A stretch of DNA of 64,000 nt from Alphaproteobacteria bacterium (GCA_965248835.1 CBDFLJ010000001.1:2221381-2285380), one strand, 5' to 3'; positions 13,785-37,524 are shown, counted from the stretch's first letter. Program-made: numbers and translations. The notes: a model not told the origin generated them from the sequence alone.

Positions 13785-13875
13785 CCACCACCCAACCGTA
13801 GAGAACACACGCCGTGACGGTCCGTTCTCCGGGACAGACCAGTCGTCGCGGCGGTGCATTATCGGAGACATACCC

Positions 13876-14097
13876 GTGACCGAAACCCATCTCATCGAGA
13901 TCGAGCGGGTCCGCTCGGAGGCGGCGCGGCACCTCGCGGAGCATGAGATCGCCTGTGAGCGGCGCTACGGCGAGCTCCAGGCGCAGCTCACCAAGATCGA
14001 GGTGCTGCACAACCGCAATACGCGGCTGCTCTATGTCGTGCTCGGCGGCATGCTCACCGTCGCCGCCCGCGCGTTCTGGCCGGCGCTCTTCGGCTGA
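13876..14097 (+). CDS. Small phage membrane protein (coiled coil plus one TM; holin-like)
   Basis: GGAGA RBS, GTG start, HEIACERRY, C-terminal TM; located in the lysis block. Confidence 0.6.
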   Translation: MTETHLIEIERVRSEAARHLAEHEIACERRYGELQAQLTKIEVLHNRNTRLLYVVLGGMLTVAARAFWPALFG

Positions 14098-14242
14098 GGC
14101 CGTTCGGCGGCTGACGCCGATCGCGGCCGTCTTCCGCCGCACCCTCCCCACGCACCGATCCCACCGCCGGCGGTCCGGCCGTCGCCGTGCGCGCGCCGTT
14201 GGCCGGGGGCGCTTTCACGTTCAACCCAATTGGAGGCTCACA

Positions 14243-14707
14243 ATGCTGACCCTGCTCGGCAGTCTGCTGGGATTCGCCACCAGCGCCATTCCCGACATCA
14301 TATCCCTGTTCCGCGAGCGCGCCGACCGCCAACACGAGCTCGCGGTGCTCGACCGCCAGATGGAGCAGATGCGGCTCGGCCACACCCAGCGCCTCGAGGA
14401 GATCGAGGTCCAGGCCGACATCGCCGAATCCAAGGCCCTCTACCAGCACGACGCAGCGTTGGGCGGCAGCAGCCGATGGGTGGACTCCCTTCGCGCCTCG
14501 GTCCGCCCGTTGATCACCTACGCTTTCTTCATTCTGTTCGCCTCGGTCAAGGGCTCCGGTCTTTATCTCCTGATCGTGGTCGAGGGCCTGCTGATTGCCG
14601 AGGCCTTGCCGCGCATCTGGGATGCCGAGACCCAGGCGCTGTTCGCCGCTGTGATGAGCTTCTGGTTCGGCAACCGGACTCTATCCAAGCTCCGGGAGCG
14701 GCGCTGA
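14243..14707 (+). CDS. Putative holin-like phage membrane protein
   Basis: GGAGG RBS; MLTLLGSLLGF..., SVRPLITY, SFWFGNR; directly upstream of the lysozyme. Confidence 0.75.
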   Translation: MLTLLGSLLGFATSAIPDIISLFRERADRQHELAVLDRQMEQMRLGHTQRLEEIEVQADIAESKALYQHDAALGGSSRWVDSLRASVRPLITYAFFILFASVKGSGLYLLIVVEGLLIAEALPRIWDAETQALFAAVMSFWFGNRTLSKLRERR

Positions 14708-14711
14708 GGCC

Positions 14712-15152
14712 ATGCGCCATCTCACCGACGACGGCGTTGCCCTGATCAAGCGCTTCGAGGGCTTCGCGCCCGAAATCTATGTCTGCCCGGGCGGCTGGCC
14801 CACCATCGGATACGGTCATGTGGTGCGGGACCATGAGCACGAGCGGTTCGCGGAAAGCATCGACGAGGCGACGGCCGACGAGCTGCTGCGCCGCGATGTC
14901 GAGACCGCGGAGCGCGCCGTGCTGCGGCTCGTCCGCGTGCCGCTCGAGGACTGGCAATTCGACGCGCTCTGCTCGTTCGCCTTCAACCTCGGCGCCGGCG
15001 CGCTGCAGCGCTCAACGCTCCGGCGCAAGGTCAACCGCGCAGAGCACGATGCCGTGCCGGCCGAGTTCCGGCGCTGGGTCTGGGCCGGCGGACGCAGGCT
15101 CAAGGGGCTGATCCGGCGGCGGGAGGCGGAGGCGGCGCTCTATGCCGGATAG
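14712..15152 (+). CDS. Phage lysozyme (GH24 endolysin)
   Basis: LIKRFEG, TIGYGH, QFDAL.SF.FNLG, GLIRRREAE. Confidence 0.95.
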   Translation: MRHLTDDGVALIKRFEGFAPEIYVCPGGWPTIGYGHVVRDHEHERFAESIDEATADELLRRDVETAERAVLRLVRVPLEDWQFDALCSFAFNLGAGALQRSTLRRKVNRAEHDAVPAEFRRWVWAGGRRLKGLIRRREAEAALYAG

Positions 15153-15545: not shown

Positions 15546-15740
15546 ATGGCAACGAAAAATGCAGGGCTTCGAATCAGAGTCGAGCGCCCGCTTCGCGACA
15601 TGTTCCTAGACGCGTGCCGCTCCGAAGACAAGCCTGCGGCGCAGGTGATACGCGAGTTTATGCGCGAGTATATTGCGAAGCGCCGGGCGGAAGCGCAAGG
15701 CTCGTTATTCGCCGGGGAGCCACTGAAAAAGAAACGATAA
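15546..15740 (+). CDS. Ribbon-helix-helix regulator leading the R-M cluster
   Basis: MATKNAGLRIRVERPLRDMFLDAC...AAQVIREFMREY; ends 4 bp before mod. Confidence 0.75.
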   Translation: MATKNAGLRIRVERPLRDMFLDACRSEDKPAAQVIREFMREYIAKRRAEAQGSLFAGEPLKKKR

Positions 15741-15744
15741 CCCT

Positions 15745-17619
15745 ATGGTAGAGCAACAACATTCGAAACAAAGGGAGCGCGTCGCGGGCGAATCGCCTTC
15801 TCTCCGCGACGAGCTTGTCGCCCAGCTCTGCCTTCTGACGCCGCAGGCGTTTACTGAAGACCGCGTCGATTTCGCGAAACTCCGCGAGATCCTCGGGGAT
15901 CAAATCGATGACAGGCCGGAACGGTTTTCGTTTACATGGGCCGGGCGGCGGGACGCCGCCGCGATACTGCAGGCCCCCACGAGCGCAACGCTGGTCCCCG
16001 ATACGGATGAAAGCATCAACTTTACGAAAGCGCAGCACGCCTTCATCGAAGGAGAAAACCTTGAGACACTCAAGGTTATCTACCGGGCATATTTCGGCCG
16101 AGTGAAGATGATCTATCTCGACCCACCCTACAACACCGGCAATGATTTCATATACCCAGACAACTTCGCCGATCCGCTCGATCATTACCTGCGCATCACC
16201 GGACAGAAGAACGGCGACGGCGAGTACATGTCATCGGCCCCCGAGACGGGCGGGCGTTATCACTCCGCGTGGCTGTCGATGATATATCCGCGCCTTGTCA
16301 TGGCGCGGCAACTCCTGGACGAGGACGGCGTGGTCTGCGTCAGCATATCCGACCACGAGGTTGCGGCGCTCAAGTTCCTTCTCAACGAGATCTTCGGCGA
16401 GGAAAACTTCATCGCCCAGTTCGTATGGAAAAGTCGCAAGTTTCCGGACTCGCGCTCGACTATGCAGGTCTCGATCGATCATGAATACCTGCTCGCATAC
16501 CGCCGCAGCCGCGAAGGTCTGTTCCGCGGCAGCGAACGCGACGAGACGAAGTTCCAGAACCCGGACGACGATCCGCGCGGCCCATGGATGAGCCGCAGCA
16601 TGCTGGGGCTCGCCACGGCCGAGCAACGGCCAAATCTGCATTTCCCAATCACCGATTCCGCAACGGGCATCACGTATCAGCCGGCCGCGAACCGCGGCTG
16701 GCGGTACTCCAAAAACCGAATGCAAAAGCTGGTCGATGAAGGATGTGTCCTGTTCCCGTCGAAACCCGATGGACGGCCGCGCGAAAAGAAATTCAAGAAG
16801 GACCTCCAGCATCAGTTCATGGCGTTCCCGACGATTATCGACGACGTTCATACTTCGCACGGGACGGAGGAAGTCCGAGAAATTTTCGGCTTCCATGCGT
16901 TTGACTTTCCCAAGCCCGTCGAACTGTTACGCCGTTTCGTCGAACAGCTTTCCTTGGACGACGATATTGTCATGGATTTCTTCGCCGGTTCCTGTTCGAC
17001 GGCCCATGCCGTCATGAAACAGAACCGCATGGACGGCGGGCACCGCCGGTATATCTGCGTGCAGCTTCCCGAGCCAATGGACGCGGACAGCGAGACCGCG
17101 CGCCGCGGCTACAAGACCATAAGCCAGCTCGGGCTTCACAGGATTCGCATGGCGGCGAAGATGCTCGCCGATGAGGAGAGCACGATGTTGGCCGACGGCA
17201 ACGGCGATGTGGCCAATCTTGCCGTGCGCGTGTTCCGACTCGACGAATCGAATATCCGCCGCTGGATCGGCGTCGAGACCAAGGACGCCGAGGCATACGC
17301 GGAACAACTCGACGCTTTCACCGACACCCTTGTGCCTGGCTGGAAGCCGGAGAACGTCATCTGGGAGATTGCGCTGCGCGAGGGCTACGCGCTCACCTCC
17401 GAGATCGAAAAACTCGAGCTGAATGGGCAGACCGTCTGGCGCGTGACCGATCCCGAACGCGAGCAAAACTTCCATATCTGCCTTGACGACACGCTCGGCA
17501 CGGAGGTTGTTCGCACAATGGGGCTGACGCGCGACGACCTGTTCGTCTGCCGCGACGTCGCGCTCGACGACACGCTCGCCGCCAACTTGGCGCTCCAGTG
17601 CCGCCTGAAGGTCCTGTGA
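15745..17619 (+). CDS. mod: Type III restriction-modification methyltransferase (Mod)
   Basis: FIEGENLETLK, IYLDPPYNTGNDF, HSAWLSMIYPRL, FDFPKP, MDFFAGS. Confidence 0.95.
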   Translation: MVEQQHSKQRERVAGESPSLRDELVAQLCLLTPQAFTEDRVDFAKLREILGDQIDDRPERFSFTWAGRRDAAAILQAPTSATLVPDTDESINFTKAQHAFIEGENLETLKVIYRAYFGRVKMIYLDPPYNTGNDFIYPDNFADPLDHYLRITGQKNGDGEYMSSAPETGGRYHSAWLSMIYPRLVMARQLLDEDGVVCVSISDHEVAALKFLLNEIFGEENFIAQFVWKSRKFPDSRSTMQVSIDHEYLLAYRRSREGLFRGSERDETKFQNPDDDPRGPWMSRSMLGLATAEQRPNLHFPITDSATGITYQPAANRGWRYSKNRMQKLVDEGCVLFPSKPDGRPREKKFKKDLQHQFMAFPTIIDDVHTSHGTEEVREIFGFHAFDFPKPVELLRRFVEQLSLDDDIVMDFFAGSCSTAHAVMKQNRMDGGHRRYICVQLPEPMDADSETARRGYKTISQLGLHRIRMAAKMLADEESTMLADGNGDVANLAVRVFRLDESNIRRWIGVETKDAEAYAEQLDAFTDTLVPGWKPENVIWEIALREGYALTSEIEKLELNGQTVWRVTDPEREQNFHICLDDTLGTEVVRTMGLTRDDLFVCRDVALDDTLAANLALQCRLKVL

Positions 17620-17625
17620 GGCGCC

Positions 17626-20363
17626 ATGGAATTCCGCTTCGACGCAACGCAGGAATACCAGCTCGCAGCCATCGAAGCCGTCTGCGGTCTGCTTGAAGGG
17701 CAGGCCTATGTCCGCAGCGAGCTGATCATACCGGACAACGGCGCGTTCTCCGCGATCGCCAACCGGCTCGACTTGTCGGAGGATACGCTGCTCAAGAACC
17801 TCCATACGGTTCAGGAGGACGCCGGGATAGAAGCCGACGACGGATTGAAGCTTATCACTGGTATGTTGCTCGACGAAGGTCCGGACGACAGGGACTCCGA
17901 GGTTCAGTTTCCAAACTTTTCCGTCGAGATGGAGACCGGGACGGGGAAGACCTATGTTTACTTGCGCACCTCGATGGAGATGTTCCGACGTTTCGGCCTG
18001 CGCAAGTTCATCATCGTCGTACCGTCCGTGGCCGTGCGCGAGGGCGTTTACAAGGCGCTCCAGGTCACCGAAGCTCATCTCAACGCGCTCTACGACAATC
18101 CGCCGTACCGCTACTACGTCTACGATTCGGCCAATCTGAGTCAGGTGCGCCAGTTTGCGCTCTCCGACGGGCTCGAGATCATGGTCATGACCATCGACGC
18201 CTTTGCGCGCGCCGAGAACGTCATCCGCCAATCGACGGACCGGCTGCAGGGCGAGCGGCCGCTAAGCCTGATCCAGGCCAGTCGGCCCGTACTGATCCTC
18301 GATGAGCCACAGAACATGGAAAGCGAGAACCGCATTTCGGCGCTCGCCAGCCTGCACCCGTTGTTCGCGTTGCGCTACAGCGCGACGCACCGGAATCCCT
18401 ACAACCTCATCTACGGTCTTACGCCTTACGACGCCTACCGGCAGGGACTTGTTAAGCGGATCGAGGTCGCCTCAGTAATCGAAGACGTCGTTGCGCTTGA
18501 GACAACCAGAACCAGCCCTTCCTGCGCCTCGACGAGATCAAAATCCAGTCGAAGAAGCCCGCAGCGCGGCTCGGAATTCACAAGCTGATGAAAAGCGGTG
18601 CGATCAAGGAAACCGTGCTGACCATTAAGGGCGACGACGACCTAGAGAAGAAGACCGGGCGTGTTGATTACCAAGGCTATGTCGTCGAAGAAATCAGCTA
18701 CGGCGGCAAGTTTGTTCGCTTCGCTAACAACGTCGAGCTTCGCATCGGTGAGGCGGTTGGCGTCGAGAAGGTGGCGATTTTCGAGGCGCAGCTTCGCTAT
18801 ACGATCGAGGAACATTTTCGCAAACAGGCGCGCTTCCGGGACCAAGGGATCAAGGTCCTTTCCCTGTTCTTCATCGACAGGGTTAACAACTATGTCGCGG
18901 AGGACGGGGTCATACGGGAACTGTTCGACGGCGCCTTCAACGAATTGAAGGCGTCGTATCCAGAGTGGCGCGACGGGAATCCCAAAGACGTGCGGGCCGC
19001 ATATTTCGCCACGAAGGCAAAGAGAGGCGGTGCGGTCGAGTACCTAGATACGACCGGCAAGAGCAAGGCGGACGAGGAAGCGTTCAGCCTAATCATGCAG
19101 CGCAAAGAGGACCTGCTGTCGTTCGAGGAGCCCGTGTCCTTCATCTTCTCGCACTCGGCCCTGCGAGAAGGCTGGGACAATCCGAATGTTTTCCAGATTT
19201 GCACCATGCGGGAGGTCGGCTCCGATACAGAACGTCGCCAGCAGGTCGGCCGCGGTGTTCGCCTACCAGTCAACCAGGAGGGCGAACGCATACAAGACGA
19301 GCGGATCAATGTGCTGACCGTCGTCGCAAGCGAGACCTACGAGCGGTTCGTCGCCGGACTGCAAAGCGAAATCGAGGCCGAATACGGCAAGGACGGCACG
19401 CCGCCGCCACCGCCGGATGCGCGCAAGAAGACGACGCTGCGGTTGCGCAAGGCGCATACGCTGAAGCCCGAGTTCAAGGAACTGTGGGACCGTATCAGGT
19501 ACAAGACGCGCTACGCAGTCACCATCGACAGCCACCGGCTTGTCGAGGATGTCCTGCCCGGCCTTGATGGCGCAGCGATCCGCAAACCGCGCGTGTCGAT
19601 CTCGAAGGCGGAAGTGATCGCCAACGACAAGGATACGTTTGAGGCGCTGACGCAGAGCGGCGCGCGGACCGCCATCGATCTTGCGGGCCGATACCCGCTT
19701 CCGAACCTCGTCGAGATCATGGAAAACCTGATGGAGAACACCTCACCGCCGATGCGCGTGAGTCGCCGGACGTTGTTGGAGATATTTCGGCGCACGGGCA
19801 ACCGCGAGGCAGCGCTGGACAATCCCCATGAATTCGCGACGGTGGCCATCGGCATCGTCAAGAGCAAACTCGCCGACCAGCTCGTCGAGGGGATTCGCTA
19901 CGAAAAGCTCGACAAATGGTACGAAATGACACTTTTCGACTCCGAGATCGAGACTTGGGCCGATTACATCGTGCCGAGTACGGAACGGAACGGCGCCGGT
20001 GGCACGCATATCTACGACGGCGTCCCGTTCGACTCCGAGACCATCGAGAAGCCGTTTATCGAAGCGCTGGAGAGGCGGAAGGACGTGAAGCTTTATGTCA
20101 AGCTTCCATCCTGGTTCACCGTCGCGACGCCGATCGGCGCCTACAACCCGGACTGGGCGATCGTCATGGAGAACCCGGACGGCAGCGACCTGCTCTATCT
20201 CATCCGTGAAACCAAGGGCACGCTCGACCTCGACGCGCTGCGCCCGGACGAGAAGCGTAAGATTTTGTGCGGACGGAAACATTTCCGGGACACGCTGGAG
20301 ATGGGGCAACGCGGCTACCGCGTCGTCACGGAAACCTCTCAGTTACCGGATGGAGGTGTCTAA
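17626..20363 (+). pseudogene. res: Type III restriction endonuclease (Res), frameshifted at ~18487-18500
   Basis: VEMETGTGKT, ILDEPQ and RYSATH in ORF1; SALREGWDNPNVFQIC, QQVGRGVRL and YNPDWAI...ETKG in ORF2. Removing 14 nt joins the frames. Confidence 0.9.
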
Positions 20364-20411
20364 TGCGGAATGGATGCTCCATGCCGACAAATTGCTTATC
20401 GAGCCTTCGCC

Positions 20412-22244
20412 ATGCGAATTGATCGCGTCCAGATAGAGGAAGGCTTCCTTGACGGTCTCGACGTATCGTTTGCATCGGGGCTTAACGTCATTATCGGCGA
20501 GCGCGGGACAGGTAAGACATCGCTTATCGAACTCGTCCGGTTTTGCCTCGGTGTGCAGGGGTCCACGCCAGACTCGGATAAACGGAGCCTGGATCACGCG
20601 CGCTCCATACTGGGGAGCGGTCGGGTGACGGTCTCGCTGTCCGATGGCGAGCAGAAAATACTGGTGACACGCACCGCTTCCGATGAGTCGCCCCGCGCAT
20701 CGGCTCCGTACGTTCGCCCGATCATTTTTTCGCAGACTGAAATTGAAACCGTCGGACTTCAGGCTCAAGGTCGAATCGGGCTGCTCGACGGTTTCGCTGG
20801 CGACCAAAAGGAAACGGAGGCCCGCGAGTCCGAGGCGGCTTCAGAAGTACGCTCCCTCACTGCCGAAGCGGAAGCGCTGTGTCGCGAGATCGACGAACTC
20901 GCGAGCCAGGTAGAGGAAATCCCCGCCCTTAACAAGCAAATTGCCGAACTCGTCCCGCAGGAACACAAACTGGCCAAGGTTTCCGCGGACGTCAACGAAA
21001 AGAAGAACCAGCTCGACGCGATCTCCGCCAATATCGCCGCATCCGCCGTCGGCGTCGGCGCGATCGAGCGATTTCACCATTCCGTTTCCAGGTGGCAATC
21101 AACGCTTTCGTCCGCTCCACCCCCTCTTGAACCTTGGCCGGAAGACGCCGGGCCCGATCCGCTCGAGAAATGTCGCGCAAGCGTCAAGCGCGCCAAAAAT
21201 CACCTGAACAAGGCTCTCCGGGAACTACAGAGCGCCCTGTCCGAAGCGGAGTCGCATCTTCGATCATCGCACGGCAACAAGCTCAACATCGAAGATCGTG
21301 CCAGGCAATTGCGCAAGGAGGTCGAGACTTTTCAGGAAGGGGCGGGTGCGATTGTCCGTCAGGGGCAGCAGCTCCGAGAGCGCAAGGCACAACTAGAATC
21401 GCTCAAGAACGTACTAGCCGAGCGGCAGAAAGCGCTCAAGTCCCTTCTTGCGCAGCGCAACGCCGCTCTGGACCGACTGGATTCGATCAGGGAACAGCGC
21501 TTCAGCGTGCGCAACGCTGTGGCCACGCAACTGACCGAAACCCTCGGACCGCGCATCCGCGTCAAGATCTCCCGCGCTGGACAGTTCGAAGCCTTTGCAG
21601 CTGCCATAGCCGCCGCGCTGCGCGGCAGCGGCCTGCGCTACAACGAACTTTCCTCGACTCTCGCCGGAAACGTCAGTCCGCGCGAGCTGCTCGAAGCGGT
21701 GGACACAAATGATTTTGATCTTATCGCCGAAGCCACAGGAATCACGAAGGACCGGGCCGCGCGCGCGTTAGGTCAGTTGCGCGAATGCGATCTCGGTGCA
21801 CTGGCCACTGTTGCCGTAGAGGATACCGTCGCGTTGCAGCTTCTCGACGGCGCGGATTACAAGGGCATCGTCGAGGTGTCCACCGGGCAGCGCTGTACAG
21901 TGGTTCTTCCGCTCGTCCTCCGGCATACCGAACGAGTCCTCATCGTCGATCAACCCGAGGACCATATCGACAACGCGTTCATCACGGATACGCTGATCGT
22001 CTCTGTACTCGCGCGGGGACCGGACAGCCAGATCATCTTCTCGACGCATAACGCGAACATCCCTGTGCTGGGGAACGCGGATCGGGTGGTACAGCTCGGC
22101 TCCGACGGGAGGCGCGGGTTCCCCGTCCTGGCATCGAATCTCGACGATCCGCCCGTCGTTAACGCGATAACGACTGTCATGGAAGGTGGCGCCGACGCCT
22201 TCAAACAGCGCGCGACATTCTACAGCCGCTACGAAACGCCATGA
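20412..22244 (+). CDS. ABC/SMC-like ATPase with long coiled coil
   Basis: Walker A GERGTGKT, Q-loop FSQTEIE, signature VSTGQR, Walker B/D-loop LIVDQPEDHIDN, H-loop STHNANIPV. Confidence 0.93.
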   Translation: MRIDRVQIEEGFLDGLDVSFASGLNVIIGERGTGKTSLIELVRFCLGVQGSTPDSDKRSLDHARSILGSGRVTVSLSDGEQKILVTRTASDESPRASAPYVRPIIFSQTEIETVGLQAQGRIGLLDGFAGDQKETEARESEAASEVRSLTAEAEALCREIDELASQVEEIPALNKQIAELVPQEHKLAKVSADVNEKKNQLDAISANIAASAVGVGAIERFHHSVSRWQSTLSSAPPPLEPWPEDAGPDPLEKCRASVKRAKNHLNKALRELQSALSEAESHLRSSHGNKLNIEDRARQLRKEVETFQEGAGAIVRQGQQLRERKAQLESLKNVLAERQKALKSLLAQRNAALDRLDSIREQRFSVRNAVATQLTETLGPRIRVKISRAGQFEAFAAAIAAALRGSGLRYNELSSTLAGNVSPRELLEAVDTNDFDLIAEATGITKDRAARALGQLRECDLGALATVAVEDTVALQLLDGADYKGIVEVSTGQRCTVVLPLVLRHTERVLIVDQPEDHIDNAFITDTLIVSVLARGPDSQIIFSTHNANIPVLGNADRVVQLGSDGRRGFPVLASNLDDPPVVNAITTVMEGGADAFKQRATFYSRYETP

Positions 22245-24070
22245 CGCGGCAAGAGGCGCTAGACACGCTCTTGTCCAGCTCTGCACATGACCGGCTGAAG
22301 GCCGTGCGCTTCCTTGTACACAACAGCAACCCGTCCGATCTTCAGGCCCTGCGTGACACTCTTAGAGCCGATCCGGAAAGTTTGAATCTATGGTGAGTGT
22401 GTTGCGGCGAGTCTGCGCAGCATGATGCGGATCATGGCGAGTCGGATGAAGGCGACGACGGATCGAACGTGACGTTCGAAGTCGCGAGCGAGGCGCCTGT
22501 TGCGGCTGATCCAGGCGAAGGTGCGTTCGACAATCCAACGCTTTGGCAGCACCTCGAAGCGGGGCACGTCGTTGCGCTTGACGATCTCGAGCCGCCACCC
22601 CCCGGTCTTGGCGACAGTCGCGGCCATCTTCGGTCCCTGATAGCCGCCGTCGGCGTAGATCACCTCGATGAATGGGAACCGTCGCCGGGTGCGGCGCAAG
22701 AGCTCGTGGGCACCGTCGCGATCCTGAACGTCGCCGGAATGCACCACGATGCCCAGCATCAGGCCGAGCGTGTCGACCATGATGTGCCGCTTGCGACCGG
22801 TGACCTTCTTGCCCGCATCGAAGCCTTGATCGTCGATCGACGCCCCCCTTTTTGCGCCGCCTTGGCGCTCTGGCTGTCGATGACCGCGGCCGACGGGCTG
22901 GCTTCGCGTCCTTCCTCATCGCGCACCGCGACGTAGAGTTCATGATGGATCCGCTCCAGCGTGCCATCCCACTCCCATAGATCGAAATAGTCGTACACCG
23001 TCGACTTCGGCGGCAGATCCTTGGGCAGTGCATTCCACTGGCAGCCCGTGGACAGCACGGTGAAGATGCCGTTCAGAACCTCGCGCACGTCGACTGAGCG
23101 CTTGCGCCCGCCGCGCTTGGCAGGCGGGATCATTGGCGCGATCAGCGCCCACTCGGCGTCGGTCAGATCACTCGGATAGCGAAGTCCGCGACGCTCCGCC
23201 GCGCGGCGGTGTTCCGCAGTCCACATCGGGCTTCCTCCTGTAAACCGGATGCCCAGCACAGAATCACAAACGATTCTTCCGATTCAAGAACTTTCCGGAA
23301 GGGCTCTTAGAAGCGAAACCGTTTCCTATGTACGCACCGGTCTGGAGCTTGCTATCAAGCGGGCGTCGAATATTGCATCTCCTGAAGTTGAATCTACCTC
23401 GGAGGAATTTGAGATTCCTCCAGATGTACGGGGCCAAATTCGGAACGAGGTCACGGAGGAAGTCACCGGGCAAATCCTGCACGAGATTGCGTCCCCCGTC
23501 GGTCTGATCGCTTCAGCCGCCGCGCGTGAAATCCCTGACTATGAGCATTCTAGGACCAGAAAACATGTAGAAAACCTGAAGCGGGTTTTCGAGGCGATCG
23601 AACAACTGAAAAGCGCTGCGGCGGTTCCAAGGCCCGAAGAATTCGATCTGGCCGAACTGCTTGCCGAGATTGTATCGGAGGCAGTCGGAAGCGACCCAGT
23701 ACAAGTCTCGTTGCATGGCACAAAGCCGATGTTGGTCACATCCGACCGCGCCCTGCTACGACTGGCGGTCTCCAACGGCATACGAAATGCAGTTGAAGCC
23801 GTTACTGGCGCTCCCGGCGACGAACCACATCCGATCATTGTGGCCTGGGGCGCAACCGACGTCGATTACTGGGTCACGGTGTTGGATCGTGGCCCTGGGG
23901 TGGTCGGTCCGGCGGAATCCGCCTTCGGTATCGGCAAGACCACAAAGAAGGGACATAGCGGGTTCGGACTGACCATCGCCAGGCAGGCGATCGAGACGTT
24001 GGGAGGCATGTGCACGTTGCAGCCTGTGACGGAAGGCGGCGCCCGGTTCGAGTTACGGTGGGAACGATGA
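22241..24070 (+). pseudogene. Soluble histidine kinase with HEAT-like N-terminus (294 aa once the IS is removed), interrupted by IS5
   Basis: ATG overlaps the ATPase stop. MTRQEALDTL...LRDTL joins in frame to RSETVSYVR. H-box LHEIASP, N-box NGIRNAVEA, DRGPG and GHSGFGL are present; no TM. Confidence 0.88.
22365..23306 (-). mobile_element. IS5 family element (IS1031/IS427-like), complete, 942 bp
   Basis: IRs GAGCCGATCCGGAAAGT / GAGCCCTTCCGGAAAGT; TTA target duplication (22362-64, 23307-09). Transposase in two frames (YPSDLTDAEW; KRWIVERTFAW) joined at AAAAAGGGGGG ~22843-22853. Confidence 0.95.
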
Positions 24071-25494
24071 CGCTGCATTTGCTCATCGTTGAGGACGACG
24101 AAGACTTCGTCGAAGAGCTGCGCGAGACTATAGCGCTCCTGCCCGGTGACAGCGATATCCGAGTCGCCCGCAGCCGAGACCAAGCGTACGAGATGTTGGA
24201 GGACGGTTTTCTTGACCTGGTGACACTCGATCTCAAAATACCGACGGTCAGCGGCGCTCTCGATGCTCACCCGGAACACGGGCATGCCGTCTTCAACCGG
24301 ATTCGTAAGGTTGCGCCCGGCACGCCGATCTTCGTGCTGACCGGCTCGCCTGCCGAGGACTTTCTTCCTGAGCTGTTGATGAACCAGCAACGGATCGACG
24401 TCTGGAGCGAAGGGGAGGCGACCGGGACCATCCTATTCCTCAAGAAATACGACATTGACAGGTGTCCGGAAGTTCTGAAGCCGATCGCACAGGCGATCGA
24501 TCGCCTGTCAGATGTAGAACTGGAGGGAGGGGGTCTCAACTTGAGTCTCGCCGAAGACCGGCTGATTCGGATATTCGCGAGGAAGTTTCAGGGGGTGCGT
24601 TGCACCGTATCTGAACTCGGGGGCGGCCTGTCGGGCGCCCGCGTCATCCGCCTCCGCGTTACCGACCACCAGGGCGTACTGGTGCATGATGCCGTGGCGA
24701 AACTCTCGACGCCCGCTGATATTCAGAGGGAGGGCGGCTGCTACGACGCACACCTGACCCGGCTCGCCCCTGCCGCTACGCCGAGAATGCTTGCTACCCT
24801 GAAATACGGAGCACACAAACTGGCAGGGATTTTCTTCGGTCTTGCTGAGGGATCGGACGCATCCGCGTTCGATATCGCCGGCAGTTCGCCTGAGAGGGCC
24901 GAAGCCATAATTCGAAGCGTGGAAACCGCGATGGCACCATGGGTAAACGGGGTTCCGGAGACACGCACGACGATCCGGCGGATTCGACAGCGGCTTCTCA
25001 ATGACCAGTACCTCGACCAAGTTCGGGATTCATTTGATCTCGACTGGATTCAGAATTTCGAACACCGAGAAATACAAACGCGGTGGGCGTGCAGTCACGG
25101 GGACCTTCACGGTAAGAATATTATTGTGTCACCCGCCGGCACGGAGTTGATCGACTACGGCGATGTGGGCGATGGCCCGGCGAGCTTGGACCCTATCACA
25201 CTCGAACTGAGTTTGCTCTTTCATCCCGACGCACCCGACAAGGACGGCCCATGGCCCTCCGCTTTACAGGCTAACGCGTGGGGGGATCTGGAGGTCTACC
25301 TCGACCGCTGTCCGTTCCCCGATTTCGTGCGGGAATGTCGAGCCTGGGCCTTGCGCGTGACCGCCGGGAACAGGGAAGTTGCGGCGTCGGCATACAGCTA
25401 CCTGGTAAGGCAGCTCAAATACGAAGATACGGACAAGGATCTCGCTCTCGCTTTACTTGACGGTGTCCGATCCTTTTACGACAGAAGCTCATGA
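24067..25494 (+). CDS. Response-regulator receiver domain fused to a protein-kinase-like (APH-type) domain
   Basis: REC: LLIVEDD, LVTLDLKIP, FVLTG, FLKK. Kinase: GGGLSGARV, VAKL, HGDLHGKNI, LIDYG. ATGA overlap with the HK. Confidence 0.9.
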   Translation: MTLHLLIVEDDEDFVEELRETIALLPGDSDIRVARSRDQAYEMLEDGFLDLVTLDLKIPTVSGALDAHPEHGHAVFNRIRKVAPGTPIFVLTGSPAEDFLPELLMNQQRIDVWSEGEATGTILFLKKYDIDRCPEVLKPIAQAIDRLSDVELEGGGLNLSLAEDRLIRIFARKFQGVRCTVSELGGGLSGARVIRLRVTDHQGVLVHDAVAKLSTPADIQREGGCYDAHLTRLAPAATPRMLATLKYGAHKLAGIFFGLAEGSDASAFDIAGSSPERAEAIIRSVETAMAPWVNGVPETRTTIRRIRQRLLNDQYLDQVRDSFDLDWIQNFEHREIQTRWACSHGDLHGKNIIVSPAGTELIDYGDVGDGPASLDPITLELSLLFHPDAPDKDGPWPSALQANAWGDLEVYLDRCPFPDFVRECRAWALRVTAGNREVAASAYSYLVRQLKYEDTDKDLALALLDGVRSFYDRSS

Positions 25495-25766: not shown

Positions 25767-26050
25767 TCAATTCACCACGGCATCGGCGTCTGGCTCCTGT
25801 GCCGGACCGCCGTTGAGGACCGACGCGGTATTGGATGTCACCCGCTCGGCCGCGGCCTTGACCGGGTCCGCGGCGAGGTGGGCGTAGCGCGCCGTGGTCT
25901 GGACCTGGGTGTGGCCGAGCAACTTGCCGATCATCGGCAGGCTTTCGCCAAGGGCCACGCCGCCCGACGCGAAGCTGTGGCGGAGGTCGGTGAGGCCGAC
26001 CGGCAAATCGAGATGCCGCCTTTGGGCCGCGACGAACAGAAACGTCATCC
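25767..26050 (-). pseudogene. Diverged duplicate of the integrase 3' end
   Basis: DLRHSFAS..VALGESLPMIGKLLGHTQVQTTARYAHLAADPVK is near-identical to the C-terminus of 26446-27783; downstream flank also similar. Confidence 0.85.
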
Positions 26051-26166
26051 GCCAGTTTCCCGCGGCCTGCCGCGCGCACGACCTCCCGAACACGCGCACG
26101 ATTTCGCTCCCTCATGATTCCATAGTGATTCCATGGGCCGAAACTTCGATGCTGGCCAGACAAGCA

Positions 26167-26199
26167 AAAGCCCGTTAAGTCTTTGACTTAACGGGCTTT
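26167..26199. terminator. Perfect 15-bp hairpin downstream of the tRNA fragment
   Basis: AAAGCCCGTTAAGTC-TTT-GACTTAACGGGCTTT. Confidence 0.85.
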
Positions 26200-26202
26200 A
26201 TT

Positions 26203-26247
26203 TGGTTGCGGGGGTTGGATTTGAACCAACGACCTTCAGGTTATGAG
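26203..26247 (-). other. tRNA-Met(CAT) 3' half (att site)
   Basis: CTCATAACCTGAAGGTCGTTGGTTCAAATCCAACCCCCGCAACCA; no 5' half. Confidence 0.9.
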
Positions 26248-26445
26248 GTGACATCTCCGCCGCAGCGCGCGCGGGCCGTGCCTCCATCCCAAAGCCGCCT
26301 CGAGACTGGCGGACACGTCGTCTGCTACCTGCTTGACCGGATCCGCCGCGAGGTGGGCGTAGCGCGCCGAGGTCTCGACCTGGGAGCGCCCCGGGGGGCT
26401 TCCCGGCCTTGAACGAGCCCGGACGACGCTGACACGATAGACCCG

Positions 26446-27783
26446 TCAAATCACGGCAGCATCGGTGTCTTGATCTTGCCCGCCGCCGAGGATGGACGCG
26501 ATATTGGACGTCACCCGCTCGGCCGCGGCCTTGACCGGGTCCGCGGCGAGGTGGGCGTAGCGCGCCGTCGTCTGGACCTGGGTGTGGCCGAGCAGCTTGC
26601 CGATCATCGGCAGGCTTTCGCCAAGAGCCACGGCGCCCGACGCGAAGCTGTGGCGGAGGTCGTGGATACGGACATCCACAAGACCGGCCCGCAATTCGAG
26701 ATGCCGTTCTCGGGCCTCGGCGAGGCACTCATCGTAAGTCGGCTCCCGGCCGAGGTCGCGCTCGAGCCGCTCCACCAGGGCGGCCGCCTCGCTGCCCACG
26801 GCGCGGGCCCAGAGGCGGACCGTCGCGCGCTTGCGCATTCGCTGCCAGGGCGGTTGCAGGTCGGTCCGGCGCGAGCGCGGAATGCGGCCGCAGATGACCC
26901 AGGGATTGCCGAGCTGGCGCGTGATGCCCGCGAGCACATCGAGGGCGGGTTGGCCGAGATGAACTACGCGCGCTCCGGTCTTGGTGTCGGACAGCCGCAG
27001 GCAGTGGCCGGCCTCATCGACATCATCCCACCTCAGCGTCATGATCTCGTTGAGCCGGCAGCCGGTGAAGATCAGCAACCGGATGGCGGCGACGGCGTAT
27101 TCGTCCGCGAGACCTTCCCGCTCGGCCCGCGCCAACGCTTCGCCCAGGGCGGCGAGTTCGGCCGGGCTCAGGTAGCGCTCGCGCTTCTCCTCGGGGTACT
27201 TCTTGATATGCCGGCGCGGGTTCGATCCGTCCGGCCGCAGACCCCACATCTCCGCAAGGTTGAACATCTTGGAGATGATCTCGAGGTTTCGGTTGGCCTG
27301 GTAGGGGAGGTGGCGGAGCCCGTGGTGGAAGCGGGCGATGTCGGCCCGGACCACGTCGGCCACCGTGAGCCGGCCCAGGGCCGGGAGGATGAAGCGGCGG
27401 AGGTTGCGGCGGTATTCCCGCGCCGTGCTTGGCTTGAGACGAACGGCGATGTGCTCCTCGTCGAACCGCTTGGCGAGGTCGGCGACGCTCAACGCACCGC
27501 GATCGACTCGCCTGTCGTGGGCCGGATCCTCACCACGCTCGACGGCCGCCAGGGCCTGGCGGGCCAACCGCCGTGCTTGCTCGGGCGTCAGGACGCCATG
27601 CCGGCCGAGCGTGAACTTACGGGACTGCCGGCGCCCATTCCGGTACTGGATGACATAGGCCCTTACTCCGCTGGGCTTGACTCGAACGCCGAAGCCCGGA
27701 AGGTCCTTGTCCCACACCCACAGGTCCGTTCCGGCCTCCGGGGTGAGGTCTTCGACGAGCCGCTTGGTGATCTTCGCCTTCAT
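26446..27783 (-). CDS. Tyrosine integrase with N-terminal arm-binding domain
   Basis: VWDKDLPGFGVRV..SG, TGCRLNEI, KTG, HDLRHSFAS, LLGH...TARYAH. Confidence 0.95.
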   Translation of the reverse strand: MKAKITKRLVEDLTPEAGTDLWVWDKDLPGFGVRVKPSGVRAYVIQYRNGRRQSRKFTLGRHGVLTPEQARRLARQALAAVERGEDPAHDRRVDRGALSVADLAKRFDEEHIAVRLKPSTAREYRRNLRRFILPALGRLTVADVVRADIARFHHGLRHLPYQANRNLEIISKMFNLAEMWGLRPDGSNPRRHIKKYPEEKRERYLSPAELAALGEALARAEREGLADEYAVAAIRLLIFTGCRLNEIMTLRWDDVDEAGHCLRLSDTKTGARVVHLGQPALDVLAGITRQLGNPWVICGRIPRSRRTDLQPPWQRMRKRATVRLWARAVGSEAAALVERLERDLGREPTYDECLAEARERHLELRAGLVDVRIHDLRHSFASGAVALGESLPMIGKLLGHTQVQTTARYAHLAADPVKAAAERVTSNIASILGGGQDQDTDAAVI

Positions 27784-28205: not shown

Positions 28206-29110
28206 CTATGGGGATTGTGGCTGCGGCGCCTGGTCCGAGAGGCCGGAATGGACCGGTGGCATGTCTGACGGATCGGCCTCATCGAGTGGGTGGCGGCCGG
28301 GTCTGGGATGCCGGTCCGGACGACGGGCTGCGGCTTCACTTCGGCGGCTACGATTGTGGCGTCGTGCGAGGCGGGCAGCGTCGCGGGATAGACCGGCTCG
28401 GTATCCGACGTGCAGGGTGCTGGGCATTTGTGGTCCGGTGCTGTCCGACGGGCGGAGTGTCATGAGCTGTCCTGCCAGAAGGATGGCCGGCATGGCTCCG
28501 GCCGGGGCAGGATGGTGAGGATGATCATGGTTCCGTTGCAGCACGGGCAGCGGTCGGGCGGGTGAGCCGGGACGGTGTCCCTGGCCTGCTCGGCGGCCGG
28601 TTGCGGTGGCGGGGCGTCGAGCAGTTTGCGGCAAAGCGCGAGCTTCGCCGCGCGGTGTCCGTTGGCGAGGAAGCCGTAGTGGCGGATGCGATGGAAGCCG
28701 TCCGGCAGGGTGTGCAGTAGAAAGCGGCGGATGAACTCGTCTGCGTCCAGGGTCATGACCTTCGTCTTGCCATGGTGGCGATAGTCCTTCCAGCGGAAGG
28801 CGACCTCGTCATCGGTTACGCCGACCAACCGGGAGTTGGCGATCGCGACCCGATGGGTGTAGCGGCCGAGATAGGCGAAGACCTGCTCGGGGCCGCCGAA
28901 GGGCGGCTTGGCGTATACGACCCATTCGAGGCGACGCAACTCGCGGAGGCGGCTAATGAAGGCCTCAGGATCCGCGAGCCCGGCGAGCGCGCCAAAGAAG
29001 CCCAGACCGCCGGCCTCGAAGGCGGCGTGCAGTGCGTCGAGGAACAGGCGGCGGAAGAGGCGCGAGAGCACGCGGACCGGCAGGAAGAACCCCGGCCGGC
29101 ACGGCACCCA
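28206..29110 (-). mobile_element. IS91 family transposase, 3' fragment with element end
   Basis: FFLPVRVLSRLFR, YLGRYTHRVAI, FHRIRHYGFLAN, CPCC; CAATCCCCATAG end-like motif at ~28206-28217. Confidence 0.85.
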
Positions 29111-29415
29111 GCATCCGGCGACGCACTCCGGCTCTCCGGTCTCTGACAAGCGGCTTGGATCATCTTTTGCTGCGCCAAAGCTGGCCGGGTCGTAGTGCAT
29201 GATCTCGAGTGCGCGTCTAGCGACCTGCATCAAGCCATCATTCCAACCCACAAGTTGCGCCAAGGCGCCCGCGCCCCCCTCCGCGGATTCATAGAACAGA
29301 AGCGCGTTGCGTTCGTCGAAGCTGGGTGCCGGCTCGACGAGGATCTCGCCTTCTTCCAGTTGGAAAACGGCTTCCATGCCGCGTGCCAGCGCATGCTGAA
29401 TTGTGGTGAGCGTTC
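29110..29415 (-). pseudogene. Fragment of the DUF1998-type C-terminal domain of a large DEAD/DEAH helicase
   Basis: HALARGMEAVFQLEE.E...LFYESAEGGAGAL...ALEIMHYD...CVAGC. Confidence 0.7.
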
Positions 29416-29419
29416 CCCT

Positions 29420-30095: not shown

Positions 30096-30096
30096 C

Positions 30097-31089: not shown

Positions 31090-31171
31090 GGTAGAACCTC
31101 ATGGACTCGCAGCGAATCGCTGGTCCGTACGCAGGATGGCGAGGAATTCGAGTGCGCCGACCGGGCAATGC

Positions 31172-31270: not shown

Positions 31271-31281
31271 TGGGAGCGCGA

Positions 31282-34838: not shown

Positions 34839-34840
34839 TA

Positions 34841-37470: not shown

Positions 37471-37524
37471 TCAGAAGCAGGCAAAGTGGAGAACTGTGTT
37501 TTCGATGTACGGCGGGACCTTGAT

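What the first reader, a model, noticed from the sequence alone, without database searches (positions are those of the whole stretch)
15546..25494. Candidate undescribed defence system: type III R-M extended by an ABC ATPase, a soluble histidine kinase and a receiver-kinase effector
Seen: six co-oriented genes with gaps of 4, 6 and 48 bp, then ATGA overlaps at ATPase/HK and HK/REC-kinase. The HK has no membrane segment and has a short HEAT-like N-terminus. The response regulator outputs through an APH/protein-kinase-like domain (GLSGARV, HGDLH..N, IDYG), not a DNA-binding domain. Known: coiled-coil ABC ATPases with DQPED..DN/THNAN motifs act as sensors in conflict systems, and R-M operons often carry back-up effectors such as PrrC. 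Inference: the ATPase senses infection or R-M inhibition, and a His-Asp relay switches on a toxic kinase. I do not recognise this triad as a named system.
Basis: partly seen in the sequence, partly recalled or inferred. Interest (0 to 1): 0.85.

Follow-up and report, generated by a model that had tools for sequence, protein, structure and literature searches.

The report
SMC-like ATPase, histidine kinase, receiver-kinase cassette

Summary
The six co-oriented genes, their spacings and their motifs are as described. The last three form a strictly conserved cassette: an SMC/Rad50-like ABC ATPase, a cytosolic histidine kinase (HK) with a short helical N-terminus, and a REC-TCAD9 (APH-like) kinase. 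All three lie in the same order in 14 of 15 genome loci. They do so in 43 of 46 metagenome loci with enough upstream DNA, and also on plasmids and two viral contigs.

The cassette is sporadic: 0 of 60 relatives carry it. It sits among mobile-element and defence genes. A type III R-M lies directly upstream in only 5 of 41 other loci, though these represent at least two independent lineages. The R-M is therefore a recurrent neighbour, not part of the system.

A complex model docks the HK N-terminus onto the ATPase neck and head (ipSAE 0.62, best control 0.00). No PADLOC or NCBIfam model and no paper I could search describes the triad.

In the assembly an IS splits the HK and a 14-nt insertion frameshifts Res. 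Contigs from the likely source sample lack the 14 nt and include an IS-free HK allele.

Verdict: probably a new Detocs/Lamassu-like defence variant. Its function is inferred, not shown.

The parts
15546..15740 (+). Small ribbon-helix-helix protein (64 aa), probably the regulator of the R-M genes
   Evidence: Pfam RHH_9 at 22.4 bits, just under the cut-off of 23.4. It is 77% identical and in the same position in L001.
15745..17619 (+). Type III R-M methyltransferase (Mod), 624 aa, intact
   Evidence: PADLOC MTase_III at 551.5 bits over 12-616. Pfam N6_N4_Mtase at 109.8 bits.
17626..20363 (+). Type III R-M restriction subunit (Res). In the assembly a 14-nt insertion at 18486-18499 splits it into two ORFs.
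   Evidence: PADLOC REase_III at 305.5 and 445.2 bits for the two ORFs. Pfam ResIII plus RE_endonuc. The insertion is defined against L001. Every contig covering that place in runs X1, X2 and X3 lacks the 14 nt.
20412..22244 (+). SMC/Rad50-like ABC ATPase, 610 aa: split head with a long antiparallel coiled coil (about residues 133-378). Proposed sensor.
   Evidence: Walker A, Q-loop, signature, Walker B and H-loop motifs are invariant. AF2 model pLDDT 87.1. Best folds are JetC, Smc, MukB, Rad50, RecN and LmuB. NCBIfam TrlF-family ATPase at 235 bits, under the cut-off of 350, matching the ATPase part only.
22241..22358 (+). Histidine kinase, 5' part (first ~40 codons: first half of the helical, HEAT-like N-terminal module)
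   Evidence: tblastn finds the matching N-terminus joined to the rest of the HK in L001-L004, L006, L007 and L012. The complex model places HK residues 13-26 at the ATPase interface.
22359..23303 (-). IS5-family insertion sequence (945 nt including the target duplication) inserted in the HK gene
   Evidence: Pfam DUF4096 transposase at 100.2 bits. 23-nt inverted repeats at 22360-22382 and 23289-23311. Twelve full-length copies at 99-100% identity in the genome, this one included. Contigs that skip exactly 945 nt occur in runs X1-X4.
23304..24070 (+). Histidine kinase, 3' part: rest of the N-terminal module, the DHp helix with the H-box, and the HATPase_c domain
   Evidence: Pfam HATPase_c at 44.4 bits. 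H-box His-Glu, N-box Asn, G1 and G2 boxes are invariant in 13 orthologues. The frame matches the 5' part, since 945 is a multiple of 3.
24067..25494 (+). Response regulator with a TCAD9/APH-like kinase output, 475 aa. Proposed effector.
   Evidence: Pfam TCAD9 at 59 bits (cut-off 40), Response_reg at 36.7 and APH at 26.9. AF2 pLDDT 79.3, pTM 0.76. REC domain Z 13.9. Kinase domain best matches are LxmK (Z 12.4), APH(4)-Ia (11.3) and choline kinases (10.8).
25767..27783 (-). Context: tyrosine integrase (26446-27783) and a duplicated integrase 3' fragment (25767-26099), at the downstream edge of the island
   Evidence: Pfam Phage_integrase and Arm-DNA-bind_3. A 215-nt direct repeat, 25786-26000 against 26459-26673, is 88% identical.

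Best explanation
The last three genes form a self-contained, horizontally mobile immune cassette. The type III R-M beside it is a frequent but optional neighbour.

Proposed mechanism:
1. The SMC/Rad50-like ABC ATPase is the sensor. Most likely it detects foreign DNA or a replication or packaging intermediate, as Lamassu and Wadjet ATPases do.
2. It holds the sensor-less cytosolic histidine kinase through the kinase's short helical N-terminal module, which docks on the coiled-coil neck and the C-terminal head lobe.
3. On sensing, ATP-driven rearrangement lets the kinase autophosphorylate His99.
4. The phosphoryl group passes to Asp55 of the response regulator.
5. This switches on the fused TCAD9/APH-like kinase. 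The kinase then phosphorylates a conserved cellular or invader target, either a small molecule or a protein. That stops invader replication or the cell.

Shown here: the gene order, co-inheritance, intact catalytic motifs, sporadic distribution, the mobile-element and defence context, and a controlled in-silico ATPase-HK interface.

Inferred: the immune role, the trigger, the direction of signalling, the kinase target and any toxicity.

In the assembled genome this copy is interrupted by an IS in the HK. An IS-free allele exists in the likely source sample.
For: Synteny:
- ATPase, HK and REC-kinase lie in the same order and strand in 14 of 15 genome-contig loci. REC-kinase identity there ranges from 38 to 79%.
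- The same holds in 43 of 46 metagenome loci with at least 2900 nt upstream. HK is present in 17 of 19 loci with room for HK only.
- The triad is complete on Klebsiella and Phaeobacter plasmids and on 2 of 3 IMG/VR contigs. The third contig ends at the ATPase.
- Identities of the three proteins fall together across loci, for example 83/80/79, 65/67/67 and 39/37/38%.
- 4-nt start/stop overlaps are conserved.

Distribution:
- One copy in the own genome and 0 of 60 relatives.
- 422 clusters at 50% identity reach E<=1e-30, and nearly all are about 475 aa.
- 47 plasmid records hold a match.

Context:
- Named defence genes lie within about 4 genes in 7 of 15 genome loci. These include type I, II and III R-M, BREX, dCTP deaminase, AbiJ and CapH/CapP-like regulators.
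- 15 of 32 distinct metagenome loci have at least one PADLOC hit at E<=1e-10 among the 3 nearest genes on each side. Nine of these are named systems: Thoeris ThsB twice, Uzume, Shedu, Zorya, Dpd, type IIG R-M and type III R-M twice.
- The rest are mostly integrases, relaxases, transposases, TniQ, ParA, primase and terminase genes.

Families:
- The ATPase is nearest to the ATPase parts of TrlF, Spaf_1101 and the anti-phage protein Ppl. Structurally it is nearest JetC, Smc, MukB, Rad50, RecN and LmuB.
- The same kinase domain is also found fused to WD40 propellers in 4 of the 150 best representatives. Kaur et al. list an APH-like kinase among effectors of conflict systems (passages seen).

Interface:
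- Complex prediction gave ipSAE 0.62, with the best of 3 controls at 0.00. That mark was reached by 116 of 157 solved complexes and 2 of 215 mismatched pairs.
- The runs agree in at least 87% of contacts, and the partner pLDDT is at least 76.
- The contacts are HK residues 13-26 and 45-51 with ATPase residues 353-368, 380-390, 419-425, 437, 440 and 472. They include conserved residues on both sides.
Against: - No experiment exists, and no RNA holder was listed.
- I ran no background control for how often random genes have PADLOC neighbours. 'Enriched near defence genes' is therefore a count, not a test.
- About half of the loci show no known defence gene among the genes scanned.
- One orphan REC-kinase (L102) sits among metabolic genes.
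- The ESM Atlas lists TCAD9 kinases fused to ordinary signalling modules: REC plus Trans_reg_C, and STAS (leads only). The kinase family is therefore not confined to conflict systems.
- The kinase fold is closest to small-molecule kinases. A toxic protein-kinase action is therefore unproven.
- No match in 50,697 GenBank phage records.
- The complex score is the model's own confidence, obtained with my own small alignments. The tool says its calibration counts then hold only roughly.
- The local copy is IS-disrupted in the assembly, so it may be non-functional there.
Confidence: 0.6

Rival explanations
1. The six genes are one obligate system. The triad is a dedicated back-up arm of the type III R-M. 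It fires when restriction is inhibited or overwhelmed.
For: - A type III R-M lies directly upstream and co-oriented in the window and in L001 (all of RHH, Mod and Res), L004 (Res at the contig end) and L003 (Res remnant).
- The same is seen in distant triads. L086 has a Res 30% identical to L001's, with a REC-kinase 34% identical to the window's.
- L073 has a Mod of another PADLOC family plus a ResIII protein with no real similarity to L001's Res. Its REC-kinase is 36% identical to the window's.
- The Res-ATPase gap is only 48 nt in the window.
Against: - Only 5 of 41 other loci with readable upstream DNA have a type III R-M: 3 of 15 genome loci and 2 of 26 metagenome loci.
- The triad stands alone on plasmids and beside quite different systems.
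- In L003 the R-M has decayed while the triad stays intact.
Confidence: 0.1
2. The triad is a signalling module that serves the mobile element itself and is not immunity. The SMC-like ATPase monitors the element's own DNA state (replication, partition or transfer). The relay adjusts host or element physiology through phosphorylation.
For: - The triad is found on conjugative plasmids, beside relaxases, ParA, integrases and TniQ, and on viral contigs.
- SMC-like ATPases also act in chromosome and plasmid handling (fold matches).
- TCAD9 kinases occur with ordinary signalling inputs.
Against: - The host element type varies freely: prophage-like, plasmid, Tn7-like and plain chromosomal islands. 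No conserved partner gene from any one element goes with it.
- Its nearest ATPase relatives are defence-type proteins (Ppl, TrlF).
- Co-location with Zorya, Thoeris, Shedu, BREX and R-M is typical of defence islands.
Confidence: 0.15
3. The triad is an addiction or toxin-antitoxin-like module. The kinase is a toxin held in check by the HK acting as a phosphatase and by the ATPase. The module stabilises the island rather than sensing invaders.
For: - The genes are tightly overlapping and co-inherited on mobile DNA.
- Toxin-antitoxin genes lie nearby on Piscirickettsia plasmids.
- Decay by IS insertion and fragmentation is frequent: the window, L011, and fragmented copies in L027. This fits a costly module.
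Against: - Three large enzymes with fully conserved ATPase, HK and kinase active sites are far more machinery than known addiction modules use.
- The IS here hit the HK rather than the putative toxin, and yet the cell line survived. This argues against HK acting as an essential antitoxin.
Confidence: 0.08
4. The kinase is a regulated small-molecule (antibiotic-like) phosphotransferase, making this a two-component-controlled resistance or metabolic gene.
For: - Pfam APH at 26.9 bits, over the cut-off of 23.2.
- The best folds include APH(3')-Ia, APH(4)-Ia, maltokinase, glucosamine kinase, the amicoumacin kinase AmiN and choline kinases.
- Kaur et al. call the related effector a small-molecule kinase (passages).
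Against: - The HK has no ligand-sensing or membrane domain. It is predicted to dock on an SMC-like ATPase.
- No transporter or biosynthetic partner is conserved.
- The best single kinase match is a peptide kinase, LxmK, and all matches are roughly tied at Z 10-12.
Confidence: 0.04

Closest known systems
Detocs (DtcA sensor kinase, DtcB receiver buffer, DtcC receiver-PNP effector; Rousset et al., bioRxiv 10.1101/2023.01.24.525353, passages read)
   Same: A His-Asp phosphotransfer pathway used as a defence system. The response regulator carries an enzymatic effector instead of a DNA-binding domain, and effector domains are swappable.
   Different: - No standalone buffer receiver.
- The HK here is about 294 aa, with no TPR sensor. 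It is paired with a separate SMC-like ATPase.
- The effector is a TCAD9/APH-like kinase, not a PNP ATP nucleosidase, hydrolase or nuclease.
- No PADLOC model matched the HK. I recall, but did not verify, that PADLOC v2 contains Detocs models.
Lamassu (LmuB SMC-like ATPase with LmuA effector and LmuC) and Wadjet (JetABCD)
   Same: A coiled-coil SMC/Rad50-type ABC ATPase as the likely DNA-sensing core. JetC and LmuB are among the best structural matches. There are weak PADLOC LmuB hits (58.2 bits).
   Different: - The LmuB hits cover only the N-terminal Walker A lobe (residues 1-100).
- No LmuA/LmuC or JetA/B/D homologues are present.
- Output goes through a phosphorelay rather than a directly bound nuclease.
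Ppl / TrlF / Spaf_1101 family (PHP-domain plus ABC ATPase single proteins; NCBIfam NF042955, NF045780, NF045781)
   Same: These are the closest sequence relatives of the ATPase. TrlF matches at E 2e-69 over profile positions 290-943 of 944.
   Different: - The score of 235 bits is under the family cut-off of 350.
- The N-terminal PHP part is absent.
- TrlF works with TrlG (AlbA_2 plus HATPase_c_4) and TrlR in Photorhabdus (passages read), not with an HK and a response regulator.
TCAD9 (PF19974), the APH-like kinase effector of vWA-MoxR/iSTAND ternary conflict systems (Kaur et al., eLife 2020 and 2021; passages)
   Same: The kinase domain passes the Pfam TCAD9 cut-off (59 against 40 bits) and keeps all catalytic residues.
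   Different: - No vWA, MoxR or iSTAND genes in the window.
- Kaur et al. state that they found no histidine kinases with those effectors.
- Here the kinase is driven by REC and a cognate HK.
Ambrosia (XRE, MTase, HATPase, REC-wHTH, HNH; bioRxiv 10.1101/2025.09.30.679545, passages)
   Same: It combines R-M-type genes and a two-component pair in one defence locus.
   Different: - In Ambrosia the REC protein is a wHTH transcription factor proposed to control expression of the R-M-like genes.
- It has no SMC-like ATPase and no kinase effector.
- Its R-M parts are of type II/IV kind, not type III.

Membership tests
Type III restriction-modification | Mod subunit: N6-adenine methyltransferase of the type III family | tested here: met
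   PADLOC MTase_III at 551.5 bits over 12-616 of 624 aa. Pfam N6_N4_Mtase.
Type III restriction-modification | Res subunit: intact SF2 helicase plus C-terminal endonuclease | tested here: inconclusive
   Both domains are present. The assembly carries a frameshifting 14-nt insertion. Contigs of runs X1-X3 lack it.
Two-component system (HK plus response regulator) | HK with H-box His and with N, G1 and G2 boxes | tested here: met
   H99-E100, N197, DxGxG and GxGFGL are invariant in 13 orthologues. HATPase_c in 8 of 8. Pfam HisKA itself was not detected.
Two-component system (HK plus response regulator) | Receiver domain with an acidic pocket, a phospho-acceptor Asp and a conserved Lys | tested here: met
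   E9, D10, D55 and K127 are invariant in A1 and at least 90% conserved in A5. REC fold Z 13.9.
Two-component system (HK plus response regulator) | Phosphotransfer from HK to REC | not testable with these tools
   Needs biochemistry.
Detocs | Three genes: TPR sensor kinase DtcA, standalone receiver DtcB, receiver-effector DtcC | tested here: not met
   There is no standalone receiver gene and no TPR. An ATPase gene takes that place. No PADLOC hit for the HK.
Lamassu | LmuB together with an LmuA effector (and LmuC) | tested here: not met
   Only partial LmuB similarity was found. None of the seven window proteins scanned matched LmuA or LmuC.
Ppl / TrlF | Single protein with an N-terminal PHP domain fused to the ATPase, scoring above the NCBIfam cut-off | tested here: not met
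   235 bits against a cut-off of 350. The match starts at profile position 290, and there is no PHP domain.
TCAD9 domain (PF19974) | Domain score above the Pfam gathering threshold | tested here: met
   59 bits against 40. The precomputed Pfam for the hits agrees.
vWA-MoxR / iSTAND ternary conflict system | vWA, MoxR AAA+ or iSTAND partner genes next to the effector | tested here: not met
   None among the window genes scanned with Pfam, nor in the flanks of the 15 genome loci.
Aminoglycoside/antibiotic phosphotransferases (APH) | APH-type kinase fold and catalytic loop | tested here: met
   Pfam APH at 26.9 bits against 23.2. APH(4)-Ia at Z 11.3 with 245 residues aligned. The substrate was not tested.

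The most novel reading that the evidence does not exclude
An SMC-like ATPase directly gates a histidine kinase by clamping its small helical N-terminal module. This would be a DNA-sensing two-component immune pathway, with a phosphorelay wired to an SMC-type sensor. Its output is a receiver-activated APH-family kinase that disables the cell or the invader by phosphorylation. It is repeatedly recruited behind type III R-M as a second line of defence.
Probability: 0.3. Interest if true: 0.8.

Novelty: new variant of a known kind. Interest (0 to 1): 0.62.

Why it matters
If it is a defence system, three things would be new:
- It would be the second two-component-type immune pathway after Detocs.
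- It would be the first in which the histidine kinase takes its input from an SMC/Rad50-like ATPase rather than from its own sensor domain.
- It would be the first with an APH-family kinase as the receiver-controlled effector.

That would link three well-studied kinds of machinery: SMC-type DNA sensing, His-Asp phosphorelay and eukaryotic-like kinases.

The system is compact and soluble, and obvious point mutants are available for every step. It is widespread (422 clusters at 50% identity), and it is carried on plasmids of clinically and agriculturally relevant bacteria.

Its repeated placement behind type III R-M offers a concrete case for testing layered defence.

Tried and rejected
Tools and sources that gave nothing:
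- Nine paper searches found no description of this triad. Searches were badly posed and returned mostly irrelevant papers.
- The ABC-ATPase classification paper from the Aravind group (NAR 2020) could not be read. It may cover this ATPase clade.
- The reference list of the Detocs preprint is not held. Supplements were not consulted.

Searches with blank or uninformative results:
- GenBank phage records: no match.
- A viral-contig scan with the HK alignment found nothing, although the HK is present in L108 and L109. That blank reflects the pattern step.
- The promoter and terminator scan was no better than shuffles.
- No tRNA in the window, so no tRNA attachment site.
- No RNA holder was listed.

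Readings I gave up:
- I first read the Res frameshift as gene decay. One search shows that contigs of the same strain lack the 14 nt.
- I first read the system as dead in this organism. Contigs joining across the IS site exist in all four runs.

Limits:
Intact orthologues from L001 and other loci were used instead.
- No background control for defence-gene neighbourhood frequency was run.


Full report
**What is in the sequence.**

Six co-oriented + strand genes occupy 15546-25494:
- A 64-aa ribbon-helix-helix protein, 15546-15740.
- A type III Mod, 15745-17619.
- A type III Res, 17626-20363.
- A 610-aa ABC ATPase, 20412-22244.
- A histidine kinase (HK) starting at 22241.
- A 475-aa response regulator, 24067-25494.

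The gaps are 4, 6 and 48 nt.

Pfam and PADLOC confirm the R-M genes: MTase_III at 551.5 bits, and REase_III at 305.5 and 445.2 bits.

The response regulator has three Pfam matches, all above cut-off: Response_reg (36.7 bits), TCAD9 (59 bits, cut-off 40) and APH (26.9 bits). The HK fragment carries HATPase_c.

No 19-residue window in any of the three protein families reaches a membrane-like hydropathy (maximum 1.62).

**Two lesions in the assembly.**

The first lesion is an IS in the HK.
- The HK is split after about codon 40 by an IS5-family element. Its transposase matches DUF4096 at 100.2 bits, and it has 23-nt inverted repeats at 22360-22382 and 23289-23311.
- Twelve full-length copies at 99-100% identity lie in the 4.89-Mb, two-contig genome, this one included.

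The second lesion is in Res.
- Res reads as two ORFs because of a 14-nt insertion at 18486-18499, relative to the intact 917-aa orthologue in L001.
- Oddly, the 16-nt string that contains this insertion is identical to an internal stretch of the IS at 22566-22581. Shuffles expect 0.02 such matches in the window.

I laid Logan contigs of four runs on the region. These runs come from one sample, which is probably the source sample.
- Every contig covering 18486 in X1, X2 and X3 lacks the 14 nt. One such contig has no other difference over 1277 nt.
- One contig in each of X1-X4 joins 22357/8 to 23303/4, skipping 945 nt.
- The joined contigs of X3 and X4 carry SNPs, so they come from a close relative. 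No SNP is listed for the X1 contig, whose shorter side is only 31 nt.

The Res frameshift is therefore probably an assembly artefact or a minority variant. An intact HK allele exists in that sample. Contigs cannot give allele fractions.

**The triad is a conserved unit.**

A protein search with the REC-kinase returned 591 hits at E<=0.001 among 8000 scored candidates. The best 120 were 62-100% identical and mostly 473-478 aa long.

A scan of every 50%-identity representative gave 819 hits at E<=0.001, 637 at E<=1e-10 and 422 at E<=1e-30. Nearly all of the best 150 are about 475 aa and align end to end.

| Collection | Loci judged | Result |
|---|---|---|
| genome contigs | 15 | ATPase, HK and REC-kinase in the same order and strand in 14; L011 is degraded |
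| Metagenome, at least 2900 nt upstream | 46 of 80 | 43 have both HK and ATPase directly upstream |
| Metagenome, room for HK only | 19 of 80 | 17 have the HK |
| Metagenome, too short to judge | 15 of 80 | not counted |

The three exceptions among the 46 are L066 (a kinase fragment), L090 (HK only) and L102 (an orphan REC-kinase among metabolic genes).

Further copies:
- The triad is annotated as 'AAA family ATPase / sensor histidine kinase or ATP-binding protein / response regulator' on a conjugative IncF Klebsiella plasmid and on a Phaeobacter plasmid. REC-kinase identity there is about 34%.
- 47 plasmid records hold a match, 36 of them from Piscirickettsia salmonis. In the one I inspected the ATPase and HK are fragmented.
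- Two of three IMG/VR contigs with the ATPase carry the whole triad. The third ends at the ATPase.
- GenBank phage records gave no match.

The identities of the three proteins fall in step from locus to locus, and the 4-nt overlaps are conserved.

The own genome has one copy, and none of 60 relatives has one.

**Catalytic competence.**
- ATPase: Walker A (G-R-G-T-G-K), the Q-loop, the signature S-T-G-Q-R, Walker B with the D-loop (DQPEDHIDN) and the H-loop (THNAN) are invariant in 20 sequences down to 31% identity.
- HK: the H-box His-Glu, the N-box Asn, and the G1 and G2 boxes are invariant in 13 orthologues.
- REC-kinase: the REC acidic pocket, Asp55 and Lys127 are at least 90% conserved. 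G187, K212, H344, D346, N351 and D363 of the kinase are invariant in 24 sequences down to 30% identity.

**Structures.**

The ATPase model (pLDDT 87.1) is a split ABC head with one long antiparallel coiled coil. Its best matches are JetC of Wadjet, Smc, MukB, Rad50, RecN and Lamassu LmuB.

By sequence the ATPase is nearest to the ATPase portions of three families:
- TrlF, at 235 bits against a cut-off of 350, matching profile positions 290-943 of 944.
- Spaf_1101.
- The anti-phage protein Ppl.

It has no PHP domain. TrlF is the PHP-ATPase of the Photorhabdus TRL operon (passages read).

The REC-kinase model (pLDDT 79.3, pTM 0.76) has a canonical receiver (Z 13.9). Its APH/choline-kinase-type kinase domain matches several structures at roughly tied scores: LxmK (Z 12.4), APH(4)-Ia (11.3), Rv3168 (11.0), LicA and choline kinase (10.8) and maltokinase (10.5). 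The fold does not say whether the substrate is a small molecule or a protein.

**How the parts may connect.**

The HK has no sensor domain. It has only a conserved helical N-terminus of about 60 residues, with sub-threshold HEAT_2 hits in 5 of 8 orthologues.

I folded the cognate ATPase and HK of L001 together, using my own alignments. The result:
- ipSAE 0.62 (three runs: 0.61, 0.62, 0.64), with the best of three controls at 0.00.
- That mark was reached by 116 of 157 solved complexes and 2 of 215 mismatched pairs.
- The runs agree in at least 87% of contacts, and the partner pLDDT is at least 76.
- The tool warns that its calibration counts hold only roughly with user alignments.

The interface joins HK residues 13-26 and 45-51 to ATPase residues 353-368 (the end of the returning coiled-coil helix), 380-390, 419-425, 437, 440 and 472. 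Conserved residues lie on both sides: HK S14, H16, R23 and S47, and ATPase L353, P380 and R424.

This supports, but does not show, a physical ATPase-HK coupling. The IS in the window cuts this docking module in two.

**Context.**

In the window the six genes lie downstream of a phage-like tail and lysis region. That region holds NlpC/P60, a GpJ-like tail protein and a lysozyme, at 10693-15152. Downstream lie an integrase and an integrase fragment. Beyond those are a Y2 transposase, a TrwB-like fragment, NYN and Schlafen/AlbA_2 proteins and several transposases. G+C drops from about 0.65-0.70 to about 0.59-0.61 over 16-26 kb.

Genome loci:
- I scanned up to 4 genes on each side with Pfam (109 proteins) and 78 of those with PADLOC at E<=1e-8.
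- 7 of 15 loci have named defence genes.

| Locus | Named defence genes nearby |
|---|---|
| L001 | type III R-M |
| L004 | type III R-M |
| L003 | type II R-M and AbiJ |
| L005 | BREX BrxA/B/C and an RmrA-like regulator |
| L006 | dCTP deaminase and mad3 |
| L007 | CapH/CapP-like regulators and an SbcB-like exonuclease |
| L010 | type I HsdR, HEC-05 and a pAgo-like protein |

- The others show recombinases, transposases, relaxases, TniQ or housekeeping genes.

Metagenome loci:
- I scanned 32 distinct loci with at least 2.5 kb of flank, taking the 3 nearest genes on each side (143 proteins).
- 15 of the 32 have at least one PADLOC hit at E<=1e-10.
- 9 of these are named systems: ThsB in L048 and L049 (near-duplicate neighbourhoods), Uzume, Shedu, type IIG R-M, Zorya ZorABC, DpdF, and type III Mod or Res in L073 and L086.
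- Pfam on 40 unexplained neighbours added STAND NTPases, DUF4062, Schlafen, integrases, relaxases, ParA, a D5 primase and a terminase, along with ordinary genes.

I ran no background control, so these are counts and not an enrichment test.

**The R-M link.**

A type III R-M lies directly upstream and co-oriented in 3 of 15 genome loci (L001, L004, and a remnant in L003). It also does so in 2 of the 26 metagenome loci that had at least one upstream gene call (L073, L086). That makes 5 of 41, plus the window.
- L086's Res is 30% identical to L001's, much like its triad at 34%.
- L073's Mod belongs to another PADLOC family. Its ResIII protein shares only a helicase motif with L001's Res. At least two associations are therefore independent.

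The R-M is thus a recurrent neighbour but not a component.

**Comparison with what is known.**
- No PADLOC v2 model matches the HK, whether as the window fragment or as full-length orthologues. The kinase domain also has no match beyond noise. The REC-kinase hits are receiver-only matches: PDC-M60B/C and SduA.
- NCBIfam has no specific model for the HK or the REC-kinase.
- Source names are only 'response regulator' or 'CheY-like'.
- Detocs shares the logic but not the parts.
- Ambrosia couples R-M-like genes to a transcriptional two-component pair.
- Kaur et al. describe an APH-like kinase as a rare effector of vWA/iSTAND ternary systems. They state that no histidine kinases accompany those effectors.
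- The same kinase domain also occurs behind WD40 propellers, in 4 of the 150 best representatives. According to ESM Atlas cluster labels it also occurs behind STAS or REC plus Trans_reg_C (leads only). This points to a modular output domain.

**Verdict.**

The triad is a real, widespread and mobile three-gene unit. In the libraries and papers I could search it is undescribed.

The best reading is a new variant of two-component-type defence, with an SMC-like sensor and a receiver-gated kinase effector (confidence 0.6). The type III R-M would be an optional front line.

Nothing here shows function. The trigger, the kinase substrate and any toxicity are all inferred.

Noticed in passing
window 18485-18500 and 22566-22581: The 14-nt insertion that frameshifts Res lies inside a 16-nt string identical to an internal stretch of the IS that interrupts the HK. 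Shuffles expect 0.02 matches. Contigs of three runs lack the insertion. This may be an assembly or polishing artefact seeded by the multi-copy IS, or a templated insertion in a subpopulation.
   Followed up: partly
window 22359-23303; own genome G000: The IS5-family element has 12 full-length copies at 99-100% identity, plus fragments, across the two contigs. Its contig depth is about 460-530 against 10-26 for the flanks. This is a recently expanded, active IS. CheckM-type contamination of the genome is given as 9.51%.
   Followed up: partly
window 25786-26000 vs 26459-26673: A 215-nt direct repeat (88% identity) covers the integrase 3' end. An integrase fragment (25767-26099) lies next to the full integrase (26446-27783). 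This suggests successive integrations at one site. No tRNA gene was found anywhere in the window.
   Followed up: partly
window 7750-15152: A phage-like block lies directly upstream of the R-M genes. It holds two adjacent N6/N4 DNA methylases, DUF7220, an NlpC/P60 peptidase, a GpJ-like tail protein and a lysozyme. The island sits in the cargo position between the lysis genes and the integrase.
   Followed up: no
window 28460-42625: More mobile and conflict-type genes lie downstream: a Y2 (IS91-like) transposase, a TrwB/UvrD-like fragment, an NYN-domain protein, a Schlafen/AlbA_2 protein (32223-33599) and at least five transposase genes or fragments. After these come the sat-aprBA sulfur genes.
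   Followed up: no
P0189, P0209, P0241, P0218: Close relatives of the kinase domain (42-47% identity) carry WD40 beta-propellers instead of the receiver domain. This is a different input module on the same output.
   Followed up: partly
L102:7977-9440: An orphan REC-TCAD9 kinase without HK or ATPase lies among malate-synthase-like, luciferase-like monooxygenase and inositol monophosphatase genes.
   Followed up: partly
L027 and 35 other Piscirickettsia salmonis plasmid records: These plasmids carry a 29%-identical REC-kinase. In the one copy inspected, the ATPase and HK upstream are broken into pieces, next to terminase, VapC and RelE genes.
   Followed up: partly
REC domain, residues 58-71 of the REC-kinase (window about 24238-24279): A conserved insertion directly follows the phospho-acceptor Asp55 (P59, T60, L65, D66, H71 and G72 are invariant in A1). 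The model gives it low confidence (pLDDT below 50). This is unusual for receivers and may be a specificity or regulatory loop.
   Followed up: no
L025:4423-5538 (Klebsiella plasmid): A gene annotated 'SMEK domain-containing protein' lies just upstream of the triad on the IncF plasmid, on the opposite strand.
   Followed up: no
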